A stretch of DNA of 64,000 bases from a virus (taxonomy: Duplodnaviria > Heunggongvirae > Uroviricota > Caudoviricetes), in the IMG/VR virus record IMGVR_UViG_3300032315_001694, one strand, 5' to 3'. Numbering within the stretch: the stretch's first letter is position 1; every line of letters begins with the position of its first letter. Below are positions 29,429-51,866 of the stretch, in pieces. A program made the position numbers and the translations under genes. Under the pieces are notes generated by a model. That model was not told where the DNA came from and did no database searches. It saw nothing but the letters and a program-made list of their open reading frames with translations.

Positions 29429-29857
29429 ATGAAAATAGTTAATAAGAAGGCATATTATGACTACTTTGTAGTTGAAGAATACATCTGCGGACTTGTGCTT
29501 CAAGGATCAGAAGTGAAATCTTTGAGGCGAGGTGATGTAAATTTTAATGATGGTTATATCATCTTCAAAGATGGGGAGTTATTCATTAAGAATATGCGTA
29601 TCGCTCAGTATAAAGAAGCCACCTACAATAATCACGAAGAAATGCGTGACAAGAAAATACTTTTAACTAAAAAAGAAATATCGAAGATTTCCAAATCCTA
29701 CGATGAAAAAGGAATTACCGTAATTCCACTTGAAGTATTTATACTTAAAAATCGATTCAAAATTAAATTAGGTGTTTGTCGTGGAAAAAAGAACTGGGAT
29801 AAAAGGGAAAGTATCAAACAAAAAGATATAGAAAGAGAATATCAAAGAAAATTTTAA
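29429..29857 (+). CDS. smpB: SsrA-binding protein SmpB homolog
   Basis: NKKAYYDYFVVEEYICGLVLQGSEVKSLRRG...KILLTKKEISK...GITVIPLEVFILKNRFKIKLGVCRGKKNWDKRE follows the SmpB family consensus throughout. Confidence 0.8.
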   Translation: MKIVNKKAYYDYFVVEEYICGLVLQGSEVKSLRRGDVNFNDGYIIFKDGELFIKNMRIAQYKEATYNNHEEMRDKKILLTKKEISKISKSYDEKGITVIPLEVFILKNRFKIKLGVCRGKKNWDKRESIKQKDIEREYQRKF

Positions 29858-30017
29858 TACATAAAATATGACTGATAATGATAAAATTTCATATATTCTA
29901 AAACATGAGGCAATTATTACCTATGCTGTAATTGATGGTCATAAATCTCATGATAATGATAAGTTTAAAGAAATTAGAAAAAAAATAAAAAAGTTCAGAA
30001 AAGAATTAACTTTTTAA

Positions 30018-30025
30018 TATATTTG
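30018..30025 (+). promoter_or_regulatory. TAtaTTTG -7 promoter element 12 nt upstream of the tRNA-like ncRNA
   Basis: Exact consensus; no protein-coding gene follows. Confidence 0.45.
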
Positions 30026-30036
30026 TAATAGAAAAA

Positions 30037-30202
30037 CAACTCGAAGGCTCTGTGAAGAGCTAGGCCGTCGCATAATAACGGGGTAAGTATCGGTTAGATA
30101 CTACTGCAGAAATGCTATACGTGAGATTGTAACCCGTGGCTGATTCCCTGTTGTAATTCAGAAATGAATTATTGGATGTAGGTTCAAATCCTACCGAGTT
30201 GA
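30037..30202 (+). ncRNA. tRNA-like structured ncRNA, about 166 nt (candidate reduced tmRNA or insertion-containing tRNA)
   Basis: 7-bp acceptor pairing caactcg(30037-43)/cgagttg(30195-201); D-arm gctc-tgtgaa-gagc; T-arm gtagg-ttcaaat-cctac; 6-bp stem with 8-nt loop at 30153-30172; about 90-nt structured insert between the D-arm and the 30153-30172 stem-loop; sits directly downstream of smpB. Confidence 0.4.
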
Positions 30203-30616
30203 CTAAAATTGTGGTAGTAGATGAAACGATATACTCTACACAGCCAGTAAATAAGTTTATCTCCTTGATAAACCTGGTCAACCACCGTTAATTATATACT
30301 ATAAATAAGGAGGTTAATTTTAATATGAGCAACTGGATCGTATTAGGGTTAAAATATACTAGATGAAACCAGTACCCATTTTATATAGTGGTATTAAAAT
30401 GGATTTATGAAATGAACCATTAAATTGAAGAATTAATCTCAATAGTGTGAAATGTTGAGAGAGGCAGAATGGTAACACTGCCAATAAAAAATTAGGAGTA
30501 AAATCCGTAATTTTTTAAGATATAAGTCCAAGTGGTTAGTCCACAAAGTTTTTGTTATAGGTTTTAGGCTTTAGACCTGATAAAGACAGAAGTTCCAAAT
30601 CTTCAATTTTTTTTAT

Positions 30617-30624
30617 TATATTTG
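30617..30624 (+). promoter_or_regulatory. TAtaTTTG -7 promoter element upstream of the yqeY-like gene
   Basis: Consensus match 25 nt before ATG. Confidence 0.4.
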
Positions 30625-30649
30625 TAGAAACAATTAAAACTGATAAAAA

Positions 30650-31054
30650 ATGTCTCTTAAAGAAACAATCAATGCTGACTTCATGAAGGCCTTCAAAGCG
30701 AAGAAGATGGAGTTAAAATCTTTTCTTGGAACCTTGAAAGGTGAAATTCAAAATATTGAGAAAAACTCAATGGTAGAAAACCTTTCAGATGAAGAAGTTA
30801 TCAAAATCTTAAACAAATTTGCTAAAAACTGCAAGGAAAATATCCGTTTAGCTAATGATGAAAAATCAAAAGTTGAATTGGAAGTAATAGAATCATACTT
30901 ACCAAAACAACTTTCAGCTGAAGAAATTCAATCTAAAATTGAAGCTTTAGTTGCCTCTGGTGTTAAAAACATTGGTCAAATCATGAAAGAGTTTTCAACT
31001 CTTCCAGCTGACAAGAAAATTGTCTCTGAAATGGCTAAAAAGGCACTTGTTTAG
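30650..31054 (+). CDS. GatB/YqeY-domain protein
   Basis: MSLKETINADFMKAFKAKK...LSDEEVIKILNKFAK...ESYLPKQLSAEEIQSKIEALVASGVKNIGQIMKEF closely parallels bacterial YqeY (MSLKE..., EEYLPKQLSEEE). Confidence 0.65.
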   Translation: MSLKETINADFMKAFKAKKMELKSFLGTLKGEIQNIEKNSMVENLSDEEVIKILNKFAKNCKENIRLANDEKSKVELEVIESYLPKQLSAEEIQSKIEALVASGVKNIGQIMKEFSTLPADKKIVSEMAKKALV

Positions 31055-31104: not shown

Positions 31105-32973
31105 TTATTTAACGAAGAATCTATCTAATTGTTCTAATCTAGACTTTAGATTATTAATTTTATCTTTTTCAGGTTTATCATACTCTTCACCAAATGAAAG
31201 ATATAATTGCTTAGAATTCATAACTTTCTCAATGGATTTTTTCAGTTTATCAATAAGATTTACATCTTTCAAATCCTCAGTGTAAGACCAAGCATCTGAA
31301 GTTTTAGTTTCATCTTCTATTTCAATACCTAATAGTTCAGCATCCATTTTATGAATCCATTCAAGTGTCATAACATCATCATCTTTCACTATATCAATTG
31401 GTGATTTCATCTTATGAAGTGTTATTTTGAACTTGGTTATAAACCAATTACCAGATTCATCTTTACTCAAAAGTTCTTTTAAAATACCACCGTGTTCTTC
31501 CCAGTATCTATTTTTCTTAACTATATTTTGATACCAAACTAAATCTTTTAATTTATAGAAATCTACATAGTCTCTATCATCTCGGTGAAAATAATCACTA
31601 CCACACTCACCGGTTTTACCATTCACGGAAATAACAATACTAATAGCATCATCATCATAAATATAATAACCATAAGCATCTGAGTAAATAGCATCTTCAA
31701 CGTGTAAAAACTCATCATTCCACTCACTAAACACAATATTCTCATAATCCTCCGGATACCAACCACGATTTCCTCTACCTCCTGTTCTTACTTCGACAGC
31801 TCTATTTCTCCATAAGTAATCACTGAGTGGATCAGACCAAACTGCTTGATCCTCTGGAATTGGCTCATCATAATATTCAGAATACATCTCCTCTTCATCA
31901 GATATCTCTTGATATCCACCACCAGTATCTTCTAAAATGTATTGACCAGAATGATCGTCTTTATCATCATCATTGTAAAGATTACCATTAAATGGATTAT
32001 ATCTTTTAAATGTATCCATATAAGGATATCTTCCATATTTTTCTTTTTTTAATTCAATTATGATTCCAAGTATGTGATTTTTACCATTAAAGGTAAATTC
32101 ACTAAGACTATAATGGTTATTATTGGCTTTAAAAGCCCAACCTTCAGAAACGGCATAATCTCTCATTTTTTGAACTATCGAATCATCAATTGCATATTGT
32201 CTGTCCATTAAATATTCAAACTTTTCCGGATTTGGCACAGAAACAGATCCTTTAATCGTGTCGATTTTCCAAACAAGAGCTCTGCCTTTTAATTTTTCTT
32301 TACCATCATTCTCATCTTCTTCTACTAAACAAAGCATTTGACATTTATCAGGATTCTTTACATAAATATCGAAATATGAACTAGGTTTTTCTTTCATACA
32401 AGAATTACCCAGTGTATAATATTGAGACCAGTAATTTTCACTTTTATACCAAAAAGCAATATCGTCACCTTTTACAAGTAATATCCTTTCACCTTTCTTT
32501 TCTAAAGCTGCTTTAAATTTATTTGTAAATTCTTCAATTTGAGTTGGTGTGAATTTTCCTGGAAATACTTTATTTAAAAATCTTCCAATTTTAAGAGGAC
32601 TTCTGGATTTAGTCCAAATTTCATTTCCTAAATCATGAAGTTGGTTAGATATACTCATTTTTGGATCATCTTCAAACATAGGATAAATATGAGAGTATTT
32701 ACTTTCAGGATATTTAATGTTTAGATTCTTTCTGGCATTTTTAGCTGTTGTGAATGATATATAACCAGGATCTTTATCGAAATCAATAAAGGTTATATCA
32801 TCTTTTAAGTTTTGAAATTCCAAATCTACTAAAGAATCAGCCACTTCACCAGTTGAACCTTCTATATTTACTAATCTTTTAAATAATTTTCTGAGTTTTG
32901 GTGAAAAATAAACAATAGATTCTGAAATAGAATCTAATTGACTTTCTAGTAAAAACTCATCATATCTAAACAT
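31105..32973 (-). CDS. N-motif family paralog, large (MFRYDEFLLES), paralog of 47472..49016
   Basis: N-terminal signature; shares IVYFSPKLRKL, GNSCM...GRALVWK and YPYMDT segments with 47472..49016. Confidence 0.55.
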   Translation of the reverse strand: MFRYDEFLLESQLDSISESIVYFSPKLRKLFKRLVNIEGSTGEVADSLVDLEFQNLKDDITFIDFDKDPGYISFTTAKNARKNLNIKYPESKYSHIYPMFEDDPKMSISNQLHDLGNEIWTKSRSPLKIGRFLNKVFPGKFTPTQIEEFTNKFKAALEKKGERILLVKGDDIAFWYKSENYWSQYYTLGNSCMKEKPSSYFDIYVKNPDKCQMLCLVEEDENDGKEKLKGRALVWKIDTIKGSVSVPNPEKFEYLMDRQYAIDDSIVQKMRDYAVSEGWAFKANNNHYSLSEFTFNGKNHILGIIIELKKEKYGRYPYMDTFKRYNPFNGNLYNDDDKDDHSGQYILEDTGGGYQEISDEEEMYSEYYDEPIPEDQAVWSDPLSDYLWRNRAVEVRTGGRGNRGWYPEDYENIVFSEWNDEFLHVEDAIYSDAYGYYIYDDDAISIVISVNGKTGECGSDYFHRDDRDYVDFYKLKDLVWYQNIVKKNRYWEEHGGILKELLSKDESGNWFITKFKITLHKMKSPIDIVKDDDVMTLEWIHKMDAELLGIEIEDETKTSDAWSYTEDLKDVNLIDKLKKSIEKVMNSKQLYLSFGEEYDKPEKDKINNLKSRLEQLDRFFVK

Positions 32974-49765: not shown

Positions 49766-49855
49766 GGTCCTGTGGCGAAAATGGCAGAAACGCATCAGAC
49801 TTAAAATCTGATACCCAAGAGGTAAACGTTGTGGGTTCGACTCCCACCAGGATCA
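49766..49855 (+). tRNA. tRNA-Leu (anticodon TAA), type II
   Basis: Acceptor ggtcctg/caggatc; Leu-type D-arm gtggcgaaaatggcagaaacgc; anticodon stem tcaga/tctga with loop cttaaaa; 19-nt variable arm; T-arm gtggg-ttcgact-cccac. Confidence 0.65.
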
Positions 49856-49920
49856 CAAATGTGAGAGACCGTTTTTAGTTTTTAACAGGACACAAGAGTG
49901 GAATCGTAGAAAACTAAATT

Positions 49921-50003
49921 GGCCGAGTGGTGTAATGGCAGCCACGCCAGTCTAAGAATCTGGTGTCCGTGAGGACGTGAGAGTTCAAGTCTCTCCTTGG
50001 TCA
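49921..50003 (+). tRNA. type II tRNA (Leu/Ser-like); anticodon loop ctaagaa, assignment ambiguous
   Basis: Acceptor ggccgag/cttggtc (two G-U pairs); long variable arm with gtcc/ggac stem; T-arm gagag-ttcaagt-ctctc; anticodon stem has a T-T mismatch. Confidence 0.45.
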
Positions 50004-50021
50004 CAGAGTTGTTTTAAAAAT

Positions 50022-50100
50022 GCACCCGTAATCGAGGCTTCCTTCTAAGTTGCTAATCGTAGCGGAATTGAAAACGTGGGTTCGAATCCCTCCGGGTGTT
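50022..50100 (+). tRNA. tRNA-like element with canonical acceptor and T-arm but interior that does not fold into a standard D/anticodon cloverleaf by eye
   Basis: gcacccg/cgggtgt acceptor pairing 79 nt apart; T-arm gtgggttcgaatccctc. Confidence 0.3.
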
Positions 50101-50110
50101 CAAAAAATAT

Positions 50111-50191
50111 TGGTGGATAGCATAGCGGTTCATGCATCAGACTGTTAATCTGAGACTTAGGTCAACGTGGGTTCGAATCCCACTCCATCAG
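50111..50191 (+). tRNA. tRNA-Asn (anticodon GTT) with 13-nt variable region
   Basis: Acceptor tggtgga/tccatca; D-stem gcat/atgc; anticodon stem tcaga/tctga, loop ctGTTaa; T-arm gtggg-ttcgaat-cccac. Confidence 0.6.
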
Positions 50192-50200
50192 CTGAAAATA

Positions 50201-50282
50201 CGGCAAATACCAGCACATCCTGATAAGATGTAGAACTGTAATTGGTAAGTTGAAAATGTGGGTTCGAATCCCTCTTTGCCGA
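50201..50282 (+). tRNA. tRNA-like element, noncanonical interior (same architecture as 50022..50100)
   Basis: cggcaaa/tttgccg perfect 7-bp acceptor; identical T-arm gtgggttcgaatccctc; shared ttgaaaa motif before the T-stem. Confidence 0.3.
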
Positions 50283-50291
50283 CAAAAATAT

Positions 50292-50362
50292 TCCTCAGAA
50301 GCTCAGTGGCGAGCAACGTTCTGTTAAATCGTAGGAAGTCGGATCGTAACCGGCCTGGGGAG
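50292..50362 (+). tRNA. tRNA with anticodon loop ctGTTaa (Asn-like), imperfect anticodon stem
   Basis: Acceptor tcctcag/ctgggga; D-arm gctc-agtggc-gagc; T-arm gtcgg-atcgtaa-ccggc. Confidence 0.4.
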
Positions 50363-50369
50363 CAAAAAA

Positions 50370-50454
50370 GCATAGATGTCCGAGTGGCGAAGGATACGGT
50401 CTGCAAAACCGTAAGTTTAAATACTCATCGGGGGTTCGAGTCCCTCTCTATGCT
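50370..50454 (+). tRNA. tRNA-Cys (anticodon GCA) with unusual 17-nt variable region
   Basis: Acceptor gcataga/tctatgc; anticodon stem acggt/accgt, loop ctGCAaa; T-arm ggggg-ttcgagt-ccctc. Confidence 0.5.
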
Positions 50455-50462
50455 CAAAGTAT

Positions 50463-50548
50463 AGTCCTGTAGCTCAGTTGGTTGAGAGCGCTTGTTTTAC
50501 ACACAAGAGGCCACAAGGTTAACATCGGTTCGAATCCGGTCAGGACTA
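50463..50548 (+). tRNA. tRNA-Val (anticodon TAC) with 16-nt variable region
   Basis: Acceptor agtcctg/caggact; D-arm gctc-agttggttga-gagc; anticodon stem cttgt/acaag, loop ttTACac; T-arm atcgg-ttcgaat-ccggt. Confidence 0.55.
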
Positions 50549-50554
50549 CAAAAT

Positions 50555-50627
50555 TGTCAGTTAGCTCATTTGGTAGAGCACCACTCTGATAAAGTGGAGG
50601 TGCCGGGATCGTAACCCGGACTGACAA
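50555..50627 (+). tRNA. tRNA-Ile (anticodon GAT)
   Basis: Acceptor tgtcagt/actgaca; D-arm gctc-atttggta-gagc; anticodon stem ccact/agtgg, loop ctGATaa; 5-nt variable; T-arm ccggg-atcgtaa-cccgg. Confidence 0.7.
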
Positions 50628-50633
50628 CAATAA

Positions 50634-50714
50634 GCCAAGGTGGGACAGTGGTTGACTCCACCTCACTTGTAATGAGGAACACAAACATCGTCGGTTCGAA
50701 TCCGACCCTTGGCT
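50634..50714 (+). tRNA. tRNA-Thr (anticodon TGT) with 12-nt variable region
   Basis: Acceptor gccaagg/ccttggc; anticodon stem cctca/tgagg, loop ctTGTaa; T-arm gtcgg-ttcgaat-ccgac. Confidence 0.55.
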
Positions 50715-50721
50715 CAAAAAT

Positions 50722-50795
50722 AGTTCTGTAGCTCAGTTGGTTAGAGCGTTTGGTCGACATCCAAAAGGTCACTGGTTCGAATCCAGTTAGGACTA
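50722..50795 (+). tRNA. tRNA-Val (anticodon GAC)
   Basis: Acceptor agttctg/taggact; D-arm gctc-agttggtta-gagc; anticodon stem tttgg/ccaaa, loop tcGACat; T-arm actgg-ttcgaat-ccagt. Confidence 0.65.
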
Positions 50796-50803
50796 CAAAA
50801 AAT

Positions 50804-50876
50804 GCTGAGGTCGTATAAATGGCTATTACACACCGTTGGTATCGGTGCGACACCGGATCGTTACCGGTCTTCAGCT
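50804..50876 (+). tRNA. tRNA-Thr (anticodon GGT)
   Basis: Acceptor gctgagg/cttcagc; anticodon stem caccg/cggtg, loop ttGGTat; T-arm accgg-atcgtta-ccggt. Confidence 0.6.
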
Positions 50877-50881
50877 CAAAT

Positions 50882-50953
50882 GCTCTTGTAGCCCAATGTA
50901 GAGGCATACGCCTTAGAAGCGTAGTAGTATCGGTTCGATCCCGTTCAGGAGCA
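50882..50953 (+). tRNA. tRNA with anticodon TAG (Leu codon CUA) but short variable loop (class I body)
   Basis: Acceptor gctcttg/caggagc; anticodon stem tacgc/gcgta, loop ctTAGaa; 5-nt variable; T-arm atcgg-ttcgatc-ccgtt (one mismatch). Confidence 0.45.
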
Positions 50954-50958
50954 CAATT

Positions 50959-51034
50959 GCAGAAGTGGCGAAATTGGTAGTACGCGCTGAGCTCAAACCT
51001 CAGTTTTTTGTGGGTTCGAATCCCACCTTCTGTA
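50959..51034 (+). tRNA. tRNA-Leu-like (anticodon CAA) with Leu-type D-arm but short variable loop
   Basis: Acceptor gcagaag/cttctgt; D-arm gtggcgaaattggtagtacgc; anticodon stem ctgag/ctcag, loop ctCAAac; T-arm gtggg-ttcgaat-cccac. Confidence 0.5.
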
Positions 51035-51072
51035 CACGGTTAATGGAGTTCGAATGTTTTATATATACTATT

Positions 51073-51591
51073 ATGAAAGAAAAAATACTTGAACTGAGAA
51101 AAAATGGATTGAGTTATGTTGAAATACAAAAACAACTTGGATGTTCTAAATCAACTATATCCTATAACTGTAAAAAAAATGGACTGACTGATATAGGATT
51201 AAAAGATAAAAAAAGAAAATTAAGAGGAACAAAGATTTGTGAAAATTGTAATATAGAGTTTAGCTTAACTGGTATATCTAAAGATAGGATATTTTGTTGT
51301 AAAGAGTGCTATAACAAAAGTGAAAAGAAAAGAAAAGAGGGTAGAAATTTCGGATTATATTCATCACAAATACAAAAAGAAAGAAGAAGAAGTAAAAACG
51401 AAATTTATTTTTTTGAGCTGTGTAAGGAAAAATATGAAGAAGTGTTAAGTAATGAAGCAATTTTTAATGGGTGGGACGCTGATGTAATAATTGTAAATTA
51501 TAAAGTTGCTATTTTATGGAATGGAAAATGGCATTATGAAAAAATAAAAAACAACACTCTGTTAAGCAAGTTCAGAACAGAGATTCTTTAA
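51073..51591 (+). CDS. HTH plus Vsr/DUF559-like endonuclease (freestanding homing-endonuclease-like gene inside the tRNA array)
   Basis: N-terminal HTH (LSYVEIQKQLGCSKSTISY); Cys4 region; C-terminal DADVIIVNYKVAILWNGKWH resembles the Vsr/DUF559 core. The tracked ORF start at 50965 overlaps a tRNA, so the Met at 51073 is used. Confidence 0.5.
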   Translation: MKEKILELRKNGLSYVEIQKQLGCSKSTISYNCKKNGLTDIGLKDKKRKLRGTKICENCNIEFSLTGISKDRIFCCKECYNKSEKKRKEGRNFGLYSSQIQKERRRSKNEIYFFELCKEKYEEVLSNEAIFNGWDADVIIVNYKVAILWNGKWHYEKIKNNTLLSKFRTEIL

Positions 51592-51690
51592 AAATTAAAG
51601 AAATAAAATCTTGTGGATATTTACCATATGTTATTAAAGATATGGGTCGAGAAAATAAAGATTTTGTTAAAAGTGAATTTGAAAAATTAA

Positions 51691-51767
51691 CCGGATATAT
51701 ATCCTCGCTCTCATAAGGCGTAGAAAGATTAGTTGGCTTCACGGTGGTTCGATTCCACCTATCCGGA
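51691..51767 (+). tRNA. tRNA-like element with canonical acceptor and T-arm, noncanonical interior
   Basis: ccggata/tatccgg perfect acceptor; T-arm ggtgg-ttcgatt-ccacc. Confidence 0.3.
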
Positions 51768-51772
51768 CAAGT

Positions 51773-51843
51773 GGTTCCATAGTTTAATGAAAAACCTCTC
51801 GGTCCTAACGAGAGATATACGAGTTCAAATCTCGTTGGAACCC
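51773..51843 (+). tRNA. tRNA-Arg (anticodon CCT)
   Basis: Acceptor ggttcca/tggaacc; D-arm gttt-aatgaa-aaac; anticodon stem tctcg/cgaga, loop gtCCTaa; T-arm acgag-ttcaaat-ctcgt. Confidence 0.6.
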
Positions 51844-51866
51844 CTCGATAACAAAAAATAAAAATT

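What the first reader, a model, noticed from the sequence alone, without database searches (positions are those of the whole stretch)
29429..30202. Phage smpB followed by a promoter-driven 166-nt tRNA-like ncRNA (candidate reduced tmRNA or insertion-bearing tRNA)
SmpB is the obligate partner of tmRNA. Twelve nt after a TAtaTTTG promoter element lies an RNA-only locus. It has a perfect 7-bp acceptor pairing (30037-43 with 30195-201), a D-arm, a canonical T-arm (gtaggttcaaatcctac) and a stem with an 8-nt loop. About 90 nt is inserted between the D-arm and the 30153-30172 stem-loop, and within it acggg/cccgt can close an internal domain. It is too short for a canonical tmRNA, lacks the G3-U70 alanine identity pair, and I could not find a convincing ...ALAA tag frame. 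So it is either a highly reduced or divergent tmRNA-like RNA, a tRNA carrying a large insertion, or a new SmpB-associated RNA. The whole 30037..30650 interval has no credible ORF. It also contains a Shine-Dalgarno-like aaggagg followed by a 13-codon micro-ORF at 30337..30378.
Basis: partly seen in the sequence, partly recalled or inferred. Interest (0 to 1): 0.85.

Follow-up and report, generated by a model that had tools for sequence, protein, structure and literature searches.

The report
tRNA-like module on new phage RNA
The tRNA-like RNA after the phage smpB gene is real and conserved, but it is not a recognisable tmRNA: it is an add-on, found in one clade only, at the front of a much more widespread and previously unclassified ~400-nt pseudoknotted RNA that precedes the yqeY gene in a large family of huge phages.

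Summary
smpB (29429-29857) is a full-length SmpB gene. At 30037-30202, 11 nt after a Bacteroidota-type promoter box, lies a 166-nt tRNA-shaped element: a 7-bp acceptor stem, a D-hairpin, a canonical T-arm, and a ~75-nt insert in place of the anticodon arm. Twelve distinct homologues keep the fold (96% of cells paired, against 23-40% in slid controls; 6 compensatory pairs).

ARAGORN and all Rfam tmRNA and tRNA models reject the element, position 3:70 is always A-U, and no anticodon loop can be rebuilt. A GCC-GUC-GCA-UAA-UAA mini-frame exists but shows no coding-type variation.

The element is not a stand-alone locus. It is a clean ~175-nt insertion between the promoter and a ~410-nt RNA (30205-30614). 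That RNA has three covariation-supported pseudoknots. I found 133 distinct copies in huge-phage contigs, none in 185,579 cellular genomes, and no Rfam match. It lies directly upstream of yqeY in 101 of 109 loci and downstream of smpB in 36 of 88. Close relatives with smpB lack the tRNA-like module, and a complete 642-kb relative has smpB but no ARAGORN-detectable tmRNA.

The "Shine-Dalgarno + micro-ORF" is a pseudoknot strand. Best reading: a tRNA-derived module excised by tRNA-processing enzymes from a new yqeY-linked RNA.

The parts
29429..29857 (+). smpB, full length including the C-terminal tail
   Evidence: Pfam PF01668 at 7.9e-52. Aligns over residues 4-142 to solved SmpB chains. 806 homologues were found, with a graded series from 65 to 100% identity.
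29868..30017 (+). Conserved 49-aa ORF of unknown function, between smpB and the RNA promoter
   Evidence: Homologous 50-52-aa ORFs occupy the same position in L017, L018, L269 and L277. No Pfam hit.
30018..30027 (+). Promoter-like box TATATTTGTA (Bacteroidota -7 type, TAnnTTTG)
   Evidence: 7 copies in the window against 0.62 expected. The motif lies upstream of the RNA in 55 of 65 homologues.
30037..30202 (+). tRNA-derived module (TLD): acceptor stem 30037-43/30195-201, discriminator A30202, D-hairpin 30046-61, T-arm 30178-94
   Evidence: 12 distinct homologues; 96.2% of cells paired against 23-40% in slid controls; 6 compensatory pairs. Covariance model R1 finds it once in the window at 151.7 bits, and the next hits are ordinary tRNAs at 17 bits or less. 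In other loci the best outside hits are phage tRNA-Lys(UUU) genes.
30063..30141 (+). Insert replacing the anticodon arm: GGCC/GGCU (30063-66/30138-41), ACGGG/CCCGT (30078-82/30133-37), variable hairpins 30086-30102 and 30106-30115, invariant CTATACGTGA 30115-24
   Evidence: Compensatory G-C to U-A change in ACGGG/CCCGT (L270, L281). Four compensatory pairs in hairpin 1. Invariant single-stranded blocks in alignment A1.
30064..30078 (+). Mini-frame GCC GTC GCA TAA TAA, preceded by TAG
   Evidence: An in-frame stop is kept in 11 of 12 homologues (variants GCA-CAA-TAA, ACA-AAA-TAA, GCA-GAA-TAA). All substitutions are at first codon positions and none is synonymous. The segment is deleted in L270/L171.
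30154..30171 (+). Optional hairpin at the variable-arm position (7-bp stem, GAAA loop)
   Evidence: Present only in the window, L008 and L012. L270 has a different hairpin there, and 8 of 12 have none.
30205..30614 (+). Core RNA: a conserved ~410-nt pseudoknotted RNA of an unclassified family
   Evidence: nhmmer finds 133 distinct homologues. No Rfam 15 family matches in the window, L006/L007 or 20 diverse loci. Fold z = -6.3. Helix covariation.
30260..30313 (+).
   Evidence: 94% paired across 65 sequences; 5 of 7 pairs have compensatory types (CACCCUU/AAGGGUG, CACCUUU/AAAGGUG and others).
30325..30366 (+). 13-codon micro-ORF; not a gene, it overlaps the second hairpin/pseudoknot (AACTGG 30331-36 / CCAG 30369-72; GGGT 30346-49 / ACCC 30374-77)
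   Evidence: Lengths differ in L008, L014 and L017. L257 has no ATG. It is absent from all other clades.
30425..30606 (+). 3' domain, the most conserved unit: closing helix TTGAAGA/TCTTCAA, hairpin H1 30463-82 (loop AAUGGUAACA), H2 30486-516, AAGTCC 30524-29 pairing with GGCTT 30567-71 (pseudoknot 3), H3 30532-44, H4 30548-87, invariant GTTCC 30592-96
   Evidence: Percent paired: H1 99%, pseudoknot 3 100%, H4 93% with 5 compensatory pairs. The closing helix averages 8.1 bp against 5.7 for shuffled tails. It is the only part kept in the 642-kb phage LR756502.1.
30617..30626 (+). Second TATATTTGTA box, in front of yqeY
   Evidence: Such a box between the RNA and yqeY occurs in only 9 of 60 homologues, so elsewhere yqeY is probably co-transcribed with the RNA.
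30650..31054 (+). yqeY (GatB/YqeY-type domain protein), the constant downstream neighbour of the core RNA
   Evidence: Pfam PF09424 at 2.6e-17. Lies directly downstream on the same strand in 101 of 109 loci.

Best explanation
What is there (shown). Positions 30037-30614 form one promoter-driven, non-coding unit made of two modules.

Module A (30037-30202) descends from a phage tRNA and is closest to the family's tRNA-Lys genes. It keeps the acceptor stem, the D-stem and the T-arm. The anticodon arm is replaced by a ~75-nt insert that has conserved single-stranded blocks and two freely varying hairpins.

Module B (30205-30614) is an unclassified ~410-nt RNA with three pseudoknots. It occurs in more than 130 distinct huge-phage sequences, almost always directly in front of yqeY.

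Module A is a clean ~175-nt insertion between the promoter and module B. It is found only in the window's clade, and inside that clade it has been lost or has decayed several times.

How it most likely works (inferred). RNase P recognises the acceptor/T-arm unit and cuts at C30037. A 3' tRNA-processing nuclease cuts after A30202. The flank after the discriminator (C, then A-rich sequence) matches that of the phage's own tRNA genes, so the CCA-adding enzyme would complete the 3' end. The result is an anticodon-less tRNA-like RNA plus module B with a defined 5' end.

Module B would then act together with YqeY, a protein with a tRNA-binding-type domain. It could be a structured leader of the yqeY mRNA or an RNA partner of the YqeY protein.

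Module A is not a canonical tmRNA, and its link to SmpB is unproven.
For: - The fold is conserved with compensatory changes.
- Model R1's best hits outside the family are phage tRNA-Lys genes. They share the GCUC/GAGC D-stem, the GU(A/G)GGUUCAAAUCC(U/C)AC T-arm and CUCG/CGAG.
- The 3' flank A-C-UAAAAUUG has the same style as the 12 real tRNA genes of the window (discriminator, C, then AAA). tRNA-Val at 50463-50549 has the trailer AAAATTGT.
- Clean indel: L269 and L277-279 read TTTGTAAATAGAATTGTGGTAGTAG, with the core starting right after the promoter, and L257 is likewise.
- The core family is large and structured.
- yqeY lies downstream in 101 of 109 loci, and smpB upstream in only 36 of 88.
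- Most homologues have no promoter box between the RNA and yqeY (9 of 60 do).
- No Rfam family matches.
- The core is not found in 185,579 cellular species genomes.
Against: - No transcript or end-mapping data exist, so the processing sites are inferred only from tRNA-like geometry and flank similarity.
- The invariant internal blocks (UCGCAUAAUAACGGG, CUAUACGUGA, GAUUCCC) are more than a processing signal needs. Module A therefore has a sequence-specific function that I cannot name.
- In relatives, the same position in front of the core holds plain hairpins closed by a helix (L006/L007, L023). Module A could therefore stay attached as a peripheral domain instead of being cut out.
- The function of module B is not established. 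The cis-leader and trans-acting readings are not separated by my data; 8 of 109 loci have the RNA without yqeY.
Confidence: 0.45

Rival explanations
1. Minimal tmRNA. Module A is the RNA partner of the adjacent phage SmpB. It would be aminoacylated, enter stalled ribosomes with SmpB, and add the very short tag encoded by GCC GUC GCA (Ala-Val-Ala) before UAA UAA.
For: - It sits next to a complete smpB and is tRNA-like without an anticodon arm.
- The frame has an Ala resume-type codon, is preceded by UAG or UAA in most homologues, and is followed by two stops. An in-frame stop is kept in 11 of 12 homologues.
- Published precedents exist for 2-aa tags, and for a phage tmRNA (DS6A) that lacks a tag reading frame (PMC11915505).
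- The complete 642-kb relative has smpB but no ARAGORN tmRNA.
- Another viral contig has smpB followed directly by a permuted tmRNA.
Against: - Position 3:70 is A-U in all 12 sequences, so the universal alanine identity pair is absent.
- ARAGORN finds no tmRNA and no Rfam tmRNA model reaches E<=10.
- The substitutions in the frame are all at first codon positions and none is synonymous. The frame is deleted in L270/L171.
- The frame starts 2 nt after the D-hairpin, inside the GGCC/GGCU helix. From the known geometry of tmRNA-SmpB on the ribosome, this seems too close to the tRNA-like body to reach the decoding site (inference).
- smpB-bearing relatives lack the module.
Confidence: 0.15
2. Attached tRNA-mimic domain. 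Module A is not cut out. It stays at the 5' end as a peripheral domain of the large RNA and recruits a tRNA-binding factor (YqeY, SmpB, EF-Tu, or a modification or defence enzyme) to the core RNA.
For: - In other clades the same position holds a hairpin domain closed by a covarying helix immediately before AAAUUAUGGUAGUA. Examples are L007 UCGUUAAGAC/GUCUUAACGA, L006 with compensatory changes, and the L023 hairpin.
- The module's own acceptor stem plays that closing-helix role.
- The conserved internal blocks argue for a specific binding function.
Against: - The acceptor/T-arm unit and the tRNA-type 3' flank make it a likely substrate of tRNA-processing enzymes.
- Some family members have no 5' domain at all (L225, L164, L199, L239, L269, L277), so the position is dispensable.
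Confidence: 0.2
3. Insertion- or intron-bearing decoding tRNA. The ~75-nt insert is removed to give a normal tRNA.
For: - Relatives do carry tRNA genes with 30-65-nt insertions next to recognisable anticodon loops (L248 Lys, L183 Phe, L246 Ser).
- With the ARAGORN threshold lowered to 80%, the module is called tRNA-Ser with a 73-nt intron.
Against: - At the default threshold ARAGORN calls nothing. At the lowered threshold the anticodon call differs between homologues (gct in the window, gga in L014).
- No 7-nt loop with U33 and a purine at 37 can be rebuilt next to either conserved helix (sequence).
- The Rfam tRNA model gives only a partial hit of 21.4 bits (threshold 29), and it uses a hairpin that 8 of 12 homologues lack.
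Confidence: 0.07
4. Decaying pseudo-tRNA with no function of its own, carried along downstream of a strong promoter.
For: - Its presence within the clade is patchy.
- The L171/L270 copy has lost 12 nt and has a mutated T-loop (UUUAGAU) and a shortened acceptor 3' strand.
Against: - 71 invariant columns across 12 sequences whose SmpB proteins are only 72-100% identical.
- Compensatory changes keep four helices intact.
- Variable hairpins are flanked by invariant single strands. This is the pattern of purifying selection.
Confidence: 0.08

Closest known systems
tmRNA tRNA-like domain, including tmRNAs that lack a tag reading frame or have very short tags (phage DS6A, mitochondrial and plastid forms, 2-aa-tag forms; PMC11915505)
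   Same: tRNA-like acceptor stem and T-arm with no anticodon arm. Adjacent to smpB. A possible very short Ala-initiated frame with a double stop. Phage-encoded precedents exist.
   Different: No G3-U70. It has a true D-stem. Not detected by ARAGORN or any Rfam tmRNA model. The frame lies inside a helix 2 nt from the D-hairpin. No set of four pseudoknots lies between the two halves of the tRNA-like domain. Absent from many smpB-bearing relatives.
tRNA-like processing modules embedded in longer transcripts (from my own knowledge: mascRNA at the MALAT1 3' end; tRNAs co-transcribed in bacterial rRNA or tufB operons)
   Same: A tRNA-shaped unit placed in line with another functional RNA. RNase P and RNase Z-type cleavage would separate the two and define their ends.
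   Different: Here the unit is at the 5' side and carries a large conserved insert. Processing has not been shown.
Phage tRNA genes of the same family (tRNA-Lys(UUU) and the insertion-bearing tRNAs)
   Same: Shared D-stem, T-arm and inner acceptor pairs. Same 3' flank style. Relatives tolerate 30-65-nt insertions in the anticodon region.
   Different: No anticodon loop. The D-loop lacks the conserved GG in most copies. It is located outside the tRNA arrays.
Large ornate phage-associated RNAs GOLLD and ROOL (from my own knowledge), for the core RNA
   Same: Several hundred nucleotides long, with multiple pseudoknots. Phage-borne and found near tRNA genes. Function unknown.
   Different: No Rfam hit to either family. 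Different sequence. Tightly linked to yqeY and often to smpB.
Autoregulatory mRNA leaders that mimic the RNA ligand of the encoded protein (from my own knowledge: the thrS operator, ribosomal-protein leaders) and T-box leaders, for the core RNA
   Same: Lies immediately upstream of, and in most homologues co-transcribed with, a gene for a protein with a tRNA-binding-type domain. Contains a D-arm-like hairpin (GCAG-AAUGGUAACA-CUGC).
   Different: Much larger, with three pseudoknots. No T-box match. The RNA persists without yqeY in 8 of 109 loci. No regulatory switch is evident.

Membership tests
tmRNA (RF00023, the permuted forms and RF04321, mitochondrial tmRNA) | tRNA-like domain: 7-bp acceptor stem plus T-arm | tested here: met
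   Acceptor stem 98.8% paired and T-arm 100% paired in 12 sequences.
tmRNA | G3-U70 wobble pair (alanine identity) | tested here: not met
   A3-U70 in 12 of 12 sequences (columns 3 and 173).
tmRNA | Recognised by ARAGORN tmRNA mode or by the Rfam tmRNA covariance models | tested here: not met
   ARAGORN finds no tmRNA in the window, the sub-region or the extracted module. No tmRNA family reaches E<=10 in 29850-30700.
tmRNA | Tag reading frame with a resume codon and an in-frame stop, under coding constraint | tested here: inconclusive
   GCC GUC GCA UAA UAA keeps a stop in 11 of 12 sequences. However, there are no synonymous changes, and the frame is deleted in L270.
tmRNA | mRNA-like region and pseudoknots enclosed between the two halves of the tRNA-like domain | tested here: not met
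   Only ~75 nt are enclosed, holding two simple hairpins. The three covarying pseudoknots lie 3' of the closed acceptor stem, in the separate core RNA.
tmRNA | Co-occurrence with SmpB | tested here: inconclusive
   smpB is adjacent in the window. But the module is missing from smpB-bearing relatives (L257, L269, L277-279, the L023 clade), and the complete genome LR756502.1 has smpB, no tmRNA and no such module.
tmRNA | Alanylation and SmpB-dependent trans-translation | not testable with these tools
   Needs biochemistry.
tRNA (RF00005) | Cloverleaf with an anticodon stem-loop; score above the curated threshold | tested here: not met
   Only a partial hit at 30130-30202 of 21.4 bits, against a threshold of 29. 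ARAGORN at default settings finds nothing. At a lowered threshold the anticodon calls are inconsistent between homologues.
Group I intron / intron-form tmRNA | Match to the group I core (RF00028) and flanking exons | tested here: not met
   No RF00028 hit at E<=10. The core RNA starts right after the promoter in several homologues, so no 5' exon exists. The window's AAGAUAUAAGUCC resembles the group I S element only from memory, and it lies in the wrong order.
RNase P RNA | The CR-I/CR-V P4 helix with its universally bulged U; match to the Rfam RNase P models | tested here: not met
   No RNase P hit at E<=10. AAG(U)CC/GGCUU occurs in the window clade, but most of the family has AAUCC/GGAUU with no bulge.
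T-box leader, GOLLD, ROOL and all other Rfam 15 families | Covariance-model match | tested here: not met
   There was no hit at the gathering threshold in the window, in L273-L276 or in 20 diverse loci. There was also no hit at E<=10 in the window region and in L007, or at E<=1 in L006/L007.
SmpB protein (PF01668) | Full-length profile match, including the C-terminal tail | tested here: met

The most novel reading that the evidence does not exclude
The ~410-nt core RNA (30205-30614) is a new class of large, three-pseudoknot functional RNA, specific to huge phages of the 630-640-kb type. It would work with the tRNA-binding-type protein YqeY, and in many phages with SmpB, at the head of the phage's translation gene and tRNA region. 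That could be as a ribonucleoprotein acting on tRNAs or ribosomes, or as a tRNA-mimicking control element. In the window's clade the RNA has captured a tRNA-derived module, which may give SmpB a phage-made, non-alanine tRNA-like partner.
Probability: 0.3. Interest if true: 0.85.

Novelty: new variant of a known kind. Interest (0 to 1): 0.66.

Why it matters
Huge phages carry many translation genes, but it is unknown how SmpB, YqeY and dozens of tRNAs are used during infection.

This locus shows that smpB in this phage family is not accompanied by a recognisable tmRNA. Instead it sits next to a conserved, complex RNA that no database describes, and in one clade next to a tRNA-derived RNA that has no anticodon.

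If the core RNA is a YqeY- or SmpB-associated functional RNA, it would be a new component of phage control over host translation. It would also be a tractable new large structured RNA: more than 130 natural variants exist, and several helices are already supported by covariation.

If the tRNA-like module is charged and used with SmpB, it would be the first tmRNA-like RNA without alanine identity. If it only directs processing, it is a bacterial-virus counterpart of tRNA-like end-forming elements.

The label 'new variant of a known kind' applies to the tRNA-like module. The core RNA itself matches no known kind that I could test.

Tried and rejected
1. Canonical or permuted tmRNA spanning 30037-30650. 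I looked for a downstream 5' acceptor strand. CAACTGG at 30331 has one mismatch, but the perfect partner lies upstream. ARAGORN and Rfam are negative.

2. Core RNA as tmRNA. It has no tRNA-like ends and no conserved reading frame. The conserved GUUCCA is internal, and positions 307/308 of the alignment have no complementary partner.

3. Core RNA as a group I intron, including the intron-form tmRNA idea prompted by PMC11915505 and by a LAGLIDADG ORF in L269. The homing-endonuclease gene is inserted in the 3' end of smpB, not in the RNA. Several homologues have no 5' exon. There is no RF00028 hit.

4. Core RNA as RNase P RNA. A P4-like AAG(U)CC/GGCUU exists, but the bulged U is not conserved, the order of elements differs, and there is no Rfam hit.

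5. T-box, 6S, SRP, GOLLD and ROOL. No Rfam hits.

6. The Shine-Dalgarno plus micro-ORF as a small gene. Rejected: AAGGAGG is a covarying pseudoknot strand, and the ORF is not conserved.

7. Alternative cloverleaf at 30130-30202 (the Rfam partial hit). It depends on a hairpin that 8 of 12 homologues lack.

8. Searches for homologues:
- Exact-pattern searches for the tRNA-like module in IMG/VR returned nothing.
- The genome-contig scan returned only 4 chance matches in coding sequence.
- Literature searches found no description of this RNA.

9. A pseudoknot inside the module (UCGC 30068-71 with GUGA 30121-24). It is compatible with the alignment (G-U changes to A-U in L014 and L271) but is otherwise invariant, so it is unproven.
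Full report
**1. What the sequence shows**

The ORF at 29429-29857 is a genuine, full-length smpB. It matches Pfam SmpB at 7.9e-52 across the whole profile, and it aligns from residue 4 to 142, including the GKKxxDKR motif and the C-terminal tail, with solved SmpB proteins.

A conserved 49-aa ORF follows at 29868-30017. Then comes TATATTTGTA at 30018-30027. This Bacteroidota-type promoter box occurs 7 times in the window against 0.6 expected.

- acceptor stem 30037-43 with 30195-201, discriminator A30202;
- a GCUC/GAGC hairpin at 30046-61;
- the T-arm GTAGGTTCAAATCCTAC at 30178-94;
- an internal helix ACGGG/CCCGT.

The window has 30% G+C. Even so, this element folds well (z = -3.2), and the whole 30030-30650 interval folds very well (z = -6.3).

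**2. Standard detectors**

ARAGORN finds 12 tRNAs at 49.7-51.8 kb, but no tRNA or tmRNA at this locus.

Rfam 15 at gathering thresholds finds nothing here. At E<=10 the only relevant hit is a partial tRNA match at 30130-30202 of 21.4 bits, below the threshold of 29. No tmRNA, RNase P, T-box, group I, GOLLD or ROOL hit appears.

**3. Comparative data**

SmpB has a graded series of homologues from 65 to 100% identity, many on long contigs. Fetching their contigs showed a conserved arrangement: smpB, then 420-790 nt without a conserved ORF, then yqeY (sequences).

Two things became clear.

- The 166-nt tRNA-like module exists only in the window's clade. There are 12 distinct sequences: the window, L008, L012, L014, L017, L018, L028, L166, L176, L270/L171, L271 and L281.
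- The sequence after it (window 30205-30614) is conserved far more widely. A DNA pattern from it recovered 120 or more metagenome loci and some IMG/VR contigs of up to 476 kb. nhmmer confirmed 133 distinct copies, 65 of them below 93% identity to each other.

The same pattern in 185,579 cellular species genomes gave only four chance hits inside coding sequences.

BLAST places the family in the 630-640-kb uncultured phages LR745206.1 and LR756502.1.

**4. The tRNA-like module (module A)**

On alignment A1, my structure is 96.2% canonical pairs, against 23-40% when the 3' partners are slid by 1-3 columns. Six pairs have compensatory changes:
- 1:72 changes from C-G to A-U in L014;
- the inner helix changes from G-C to U-A in L270 and L281;
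- four pairs change in hairpin 1.

The acceptor stem and T-arm are almost invariant. Position 3:70 is A-U in all 12 sequences.

The covariance model R1 finds the element once in the window, at 151.7 bits. The next hits are ordinary tRNAs at 17 bits or less. In other loci the best hits are the family's tRNA-Lys(UUU) genes at 24-31 bits. These share the D-stem, the T-arm and the inner acceptor pairs with the module. The module therefore descends from a phage tRNA.

Its 3' flank (A73, C, UAAAAUUG) has the same form as the flanks of the window's 12 real tRNA genes. This is my basis for inferring tRNA-type end processing and CCA addition.

The insert that replaces the anticodon arm holds invariant single-stranded blocks (UCGCAUAAUAACGGG, CUAUACGUGA, GAUUCCC) and two hairpins that vary freely. 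That is a signature of selection.

No 7-nt anticodon loop can be rebuilt. At a lowered threshold it gives different anticodons for different homologues.

**5. The tmRNA question**

Points in favour:
- the position next to smpB;
- the missing anticodon arm;
- the frame UAG GCC GUC GCA UAA UAA (30061-78), whose variants (CAA, AAA or GAA replacing the first stop; ACA replacing GCA) all keep an in-frame stop;
- published precedents for 2-aa tags and for tmRNAs without a tag reading frame, one of them from a phage (PMC11915505).

Points against:
- there is no G3-U70;
- every tmRNA detector rejects it;
- all substitutions in the frame are at first codon positions, with no synonymous change in 11 sequences;
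- the frame is deleted in one lineage;
- it begins 2 nt after the D-hairpin, inside a helix, which I judge too close to the tRNA-like body to reach the decoding centre (inference from known tmRNA-SmpB geometry);
- many smpB-bearing relatives lack the module. The core RNA starts right after the promoter in L257, L269 and L277-279, and the L023 clade has a plain hairpin.

The complete 642-kb genome LR756502.1 has smpB, 46 tRNAs, no ARAGORN tmRNA and no homologue of the module. So SmpB in this family works with the host tmRNA or with something not yet recognised.

I put the minimal-tmRNA reading at 0.15.

**6. The core RNA (module B)**

A column-pair scan over 65 sequences, with slid controls, supports the following helices:

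| Element | Pairing | Cells paired | Pairs with compensatory types |
|---|---|---|---|
| Helix a | GGUAGU/ACYACC | 97% | 2 |
| Helix b | GCUG/CAGU | 99% | 3 |
| Pseudoknot 1 | hairpin loop CACCCUU with downstream AAGGGUG | 94% | 5 |
| Hairpin H1 | invariant loop AAUGGUAACA | 99% | 2 |
| Pseudoknot 3 | AAUCC/GGAUU (AAG(U)CC/GGCUU in the window) | 100% | 1 |
| H4 | GUUAAG/CUUGAC | 93% | 5 |
| Closing helix of the 3' domain | TTGAAGA/TCTTCAA in the window | mean 8.1 bp vs 5.7 for shuffled tails | – |

A second hairpin and pseudoknot (window 30331-30377) is seen by eye and changes with the clade.

The 13-codon ORF (really 30325-30366) is not conserved. No ATG ORF longer than 33 aa exists in the interval in 10 homologues.

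The 3' domain (30425-30606) is the minimal unit, and it alone is retained in LR756502.1.

**7. Context of the core RNA**

- yqeY lies directly downstream on the same strand in 101 of 109 loci.
- smpB lies directly upstream in 36 of 88 loci.
- A promoter box precedes the RNA in 55 of 65 sequences, but separates it from yqeY in only 9 of 60. The median distance from the invariant GUUCC to the yqeY ATG is 43 nt.
- tRNA arrays, IF3 and a sigma factor are nearby.

The constant partner of the RNA is therefore YqeY, a protein with a GatB-type, tRNA-binding-like domain.

Two readings remain open:
- a structured, perhaps tRNA-mimicking, leader of the yqeY mRNA;
- a stable RNA that works with YqeY.

I found no description of this RNA in Rfam 15 or in the literature I could search.

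**8. Synthesis**

Positions 30037-30614 form one non-coding unit with two modules of different age. The tRNA-derived module is a clean insertion of about 175 nt between the promoter and the older, yqeY-linked RNA. It is under selection, but it is dispensable in several lineages and decaying in one (L171/L270).

The most economical mechanism is excision by tRNA-processing enzymes. This would yield an anticodon-less tRNA-like RNA and a core RNA with a defined 5' end. What the tRNA-like RNA then does is open: an SmpB partner, a decoy for a tRNA-directed enzyme, or a regulator.

The steps shown are sequence conservation, covariation, synteny and non-membership in known families. The steps inferred are processing, CCA addition and any protein partner.

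**9. Verdict**

The module is a new variant of tRNA-like and tmRNA-like elements, and it fails the tested defining features of tmRNA. The more important result is the unclassified large RNA family it is attached to.

Noticed in passing
window 49766-51844: Many tRNAs in the array carry 8-13 extra nucleotides in the variable region (for example Val 50463-50548 and Asn 50111-50191). Rfam calls one more tRNA (50292-50362) than ARAGORN does. Model R1 gives weak tRNA-like hits at 50022-50101 and 50201-50283 that neither tool calls.
   Followed up: partly
L246 3497-3638; L214 11709-11849; L183 11603-11730; L236 3833-3960; L248 403-506: Related huge phages carry tRNA genes with 30-65-nt insertions in the anticodon region. 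No splicing mechanism is evident.
   Followed up: partly
L269 1961-2836: A 291-aa LAGLIDADG-type homing-endonuclease ORF (Pfam 1.1e-5) is inserted into the 3' end of smpB. The displaced smpB C-terminus can still be read downstream. GIY-YIG endonuclease genes lie near smpB in L025 and L271/L272.
   Followed up: partly
window 29868-30017: A 49-aa ORF between smpB and the RNA promoter is conserved in L017, L018, L269 and L277-279. It has no Pfam match.
   Followed up: no
L002 3382-3800: An unrelated IMG/VR contig has smpB followed immediately by a genuine permuted (two-piece) tmRNA with the tag ANDESYALAA. So phage smpB-tmRNA cassettes do exist and are detectable with the same tools.
   Followed up: yes
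L020-L022 (L020 2945-3406): In this lineage the core RNA is cut short after pseudoknot 1 by a hairpin and U-run. A 91-aa ORF occupies the rest of the space before yqeY.
   Followed up: no
LR756502.1 (L282-L294), 367.7-435 kb: In the complete 642-kb phage, 44 of 46 tRNA genes lie between 373 and 435 kb. The reduced RNA and yqeY sit 1.1 kb upstream of the first array, and smpB lies 4 kb further upstream. ARAGORN finds no tmRNA anywhere in the genome.
   Followed up: yes
L023-L027, downstream of yqeY: yqeY is followed by an R2K-type ATP-grasp gene and an IF3 gene. A sigma-70-family factor and a thioredoxin gene lie upstream of smpB in most loci. Together these form a conserved gene block related to translation and transcription.
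   Followed up: no
window 31105-32973 (-): A 622-aa ORF with no Pfam match lies downstream of yqeY on the opposite strand, convergent with it, and is conserved (46-72% identity) in the window clade. In other clades a 540-560-aa ORF, whose relationship to it I did not test (tblastn with the 622-aa protein at E<=1e-5 does not detect it), instead lies divergently upstream of the RNA.
   Followed up: no
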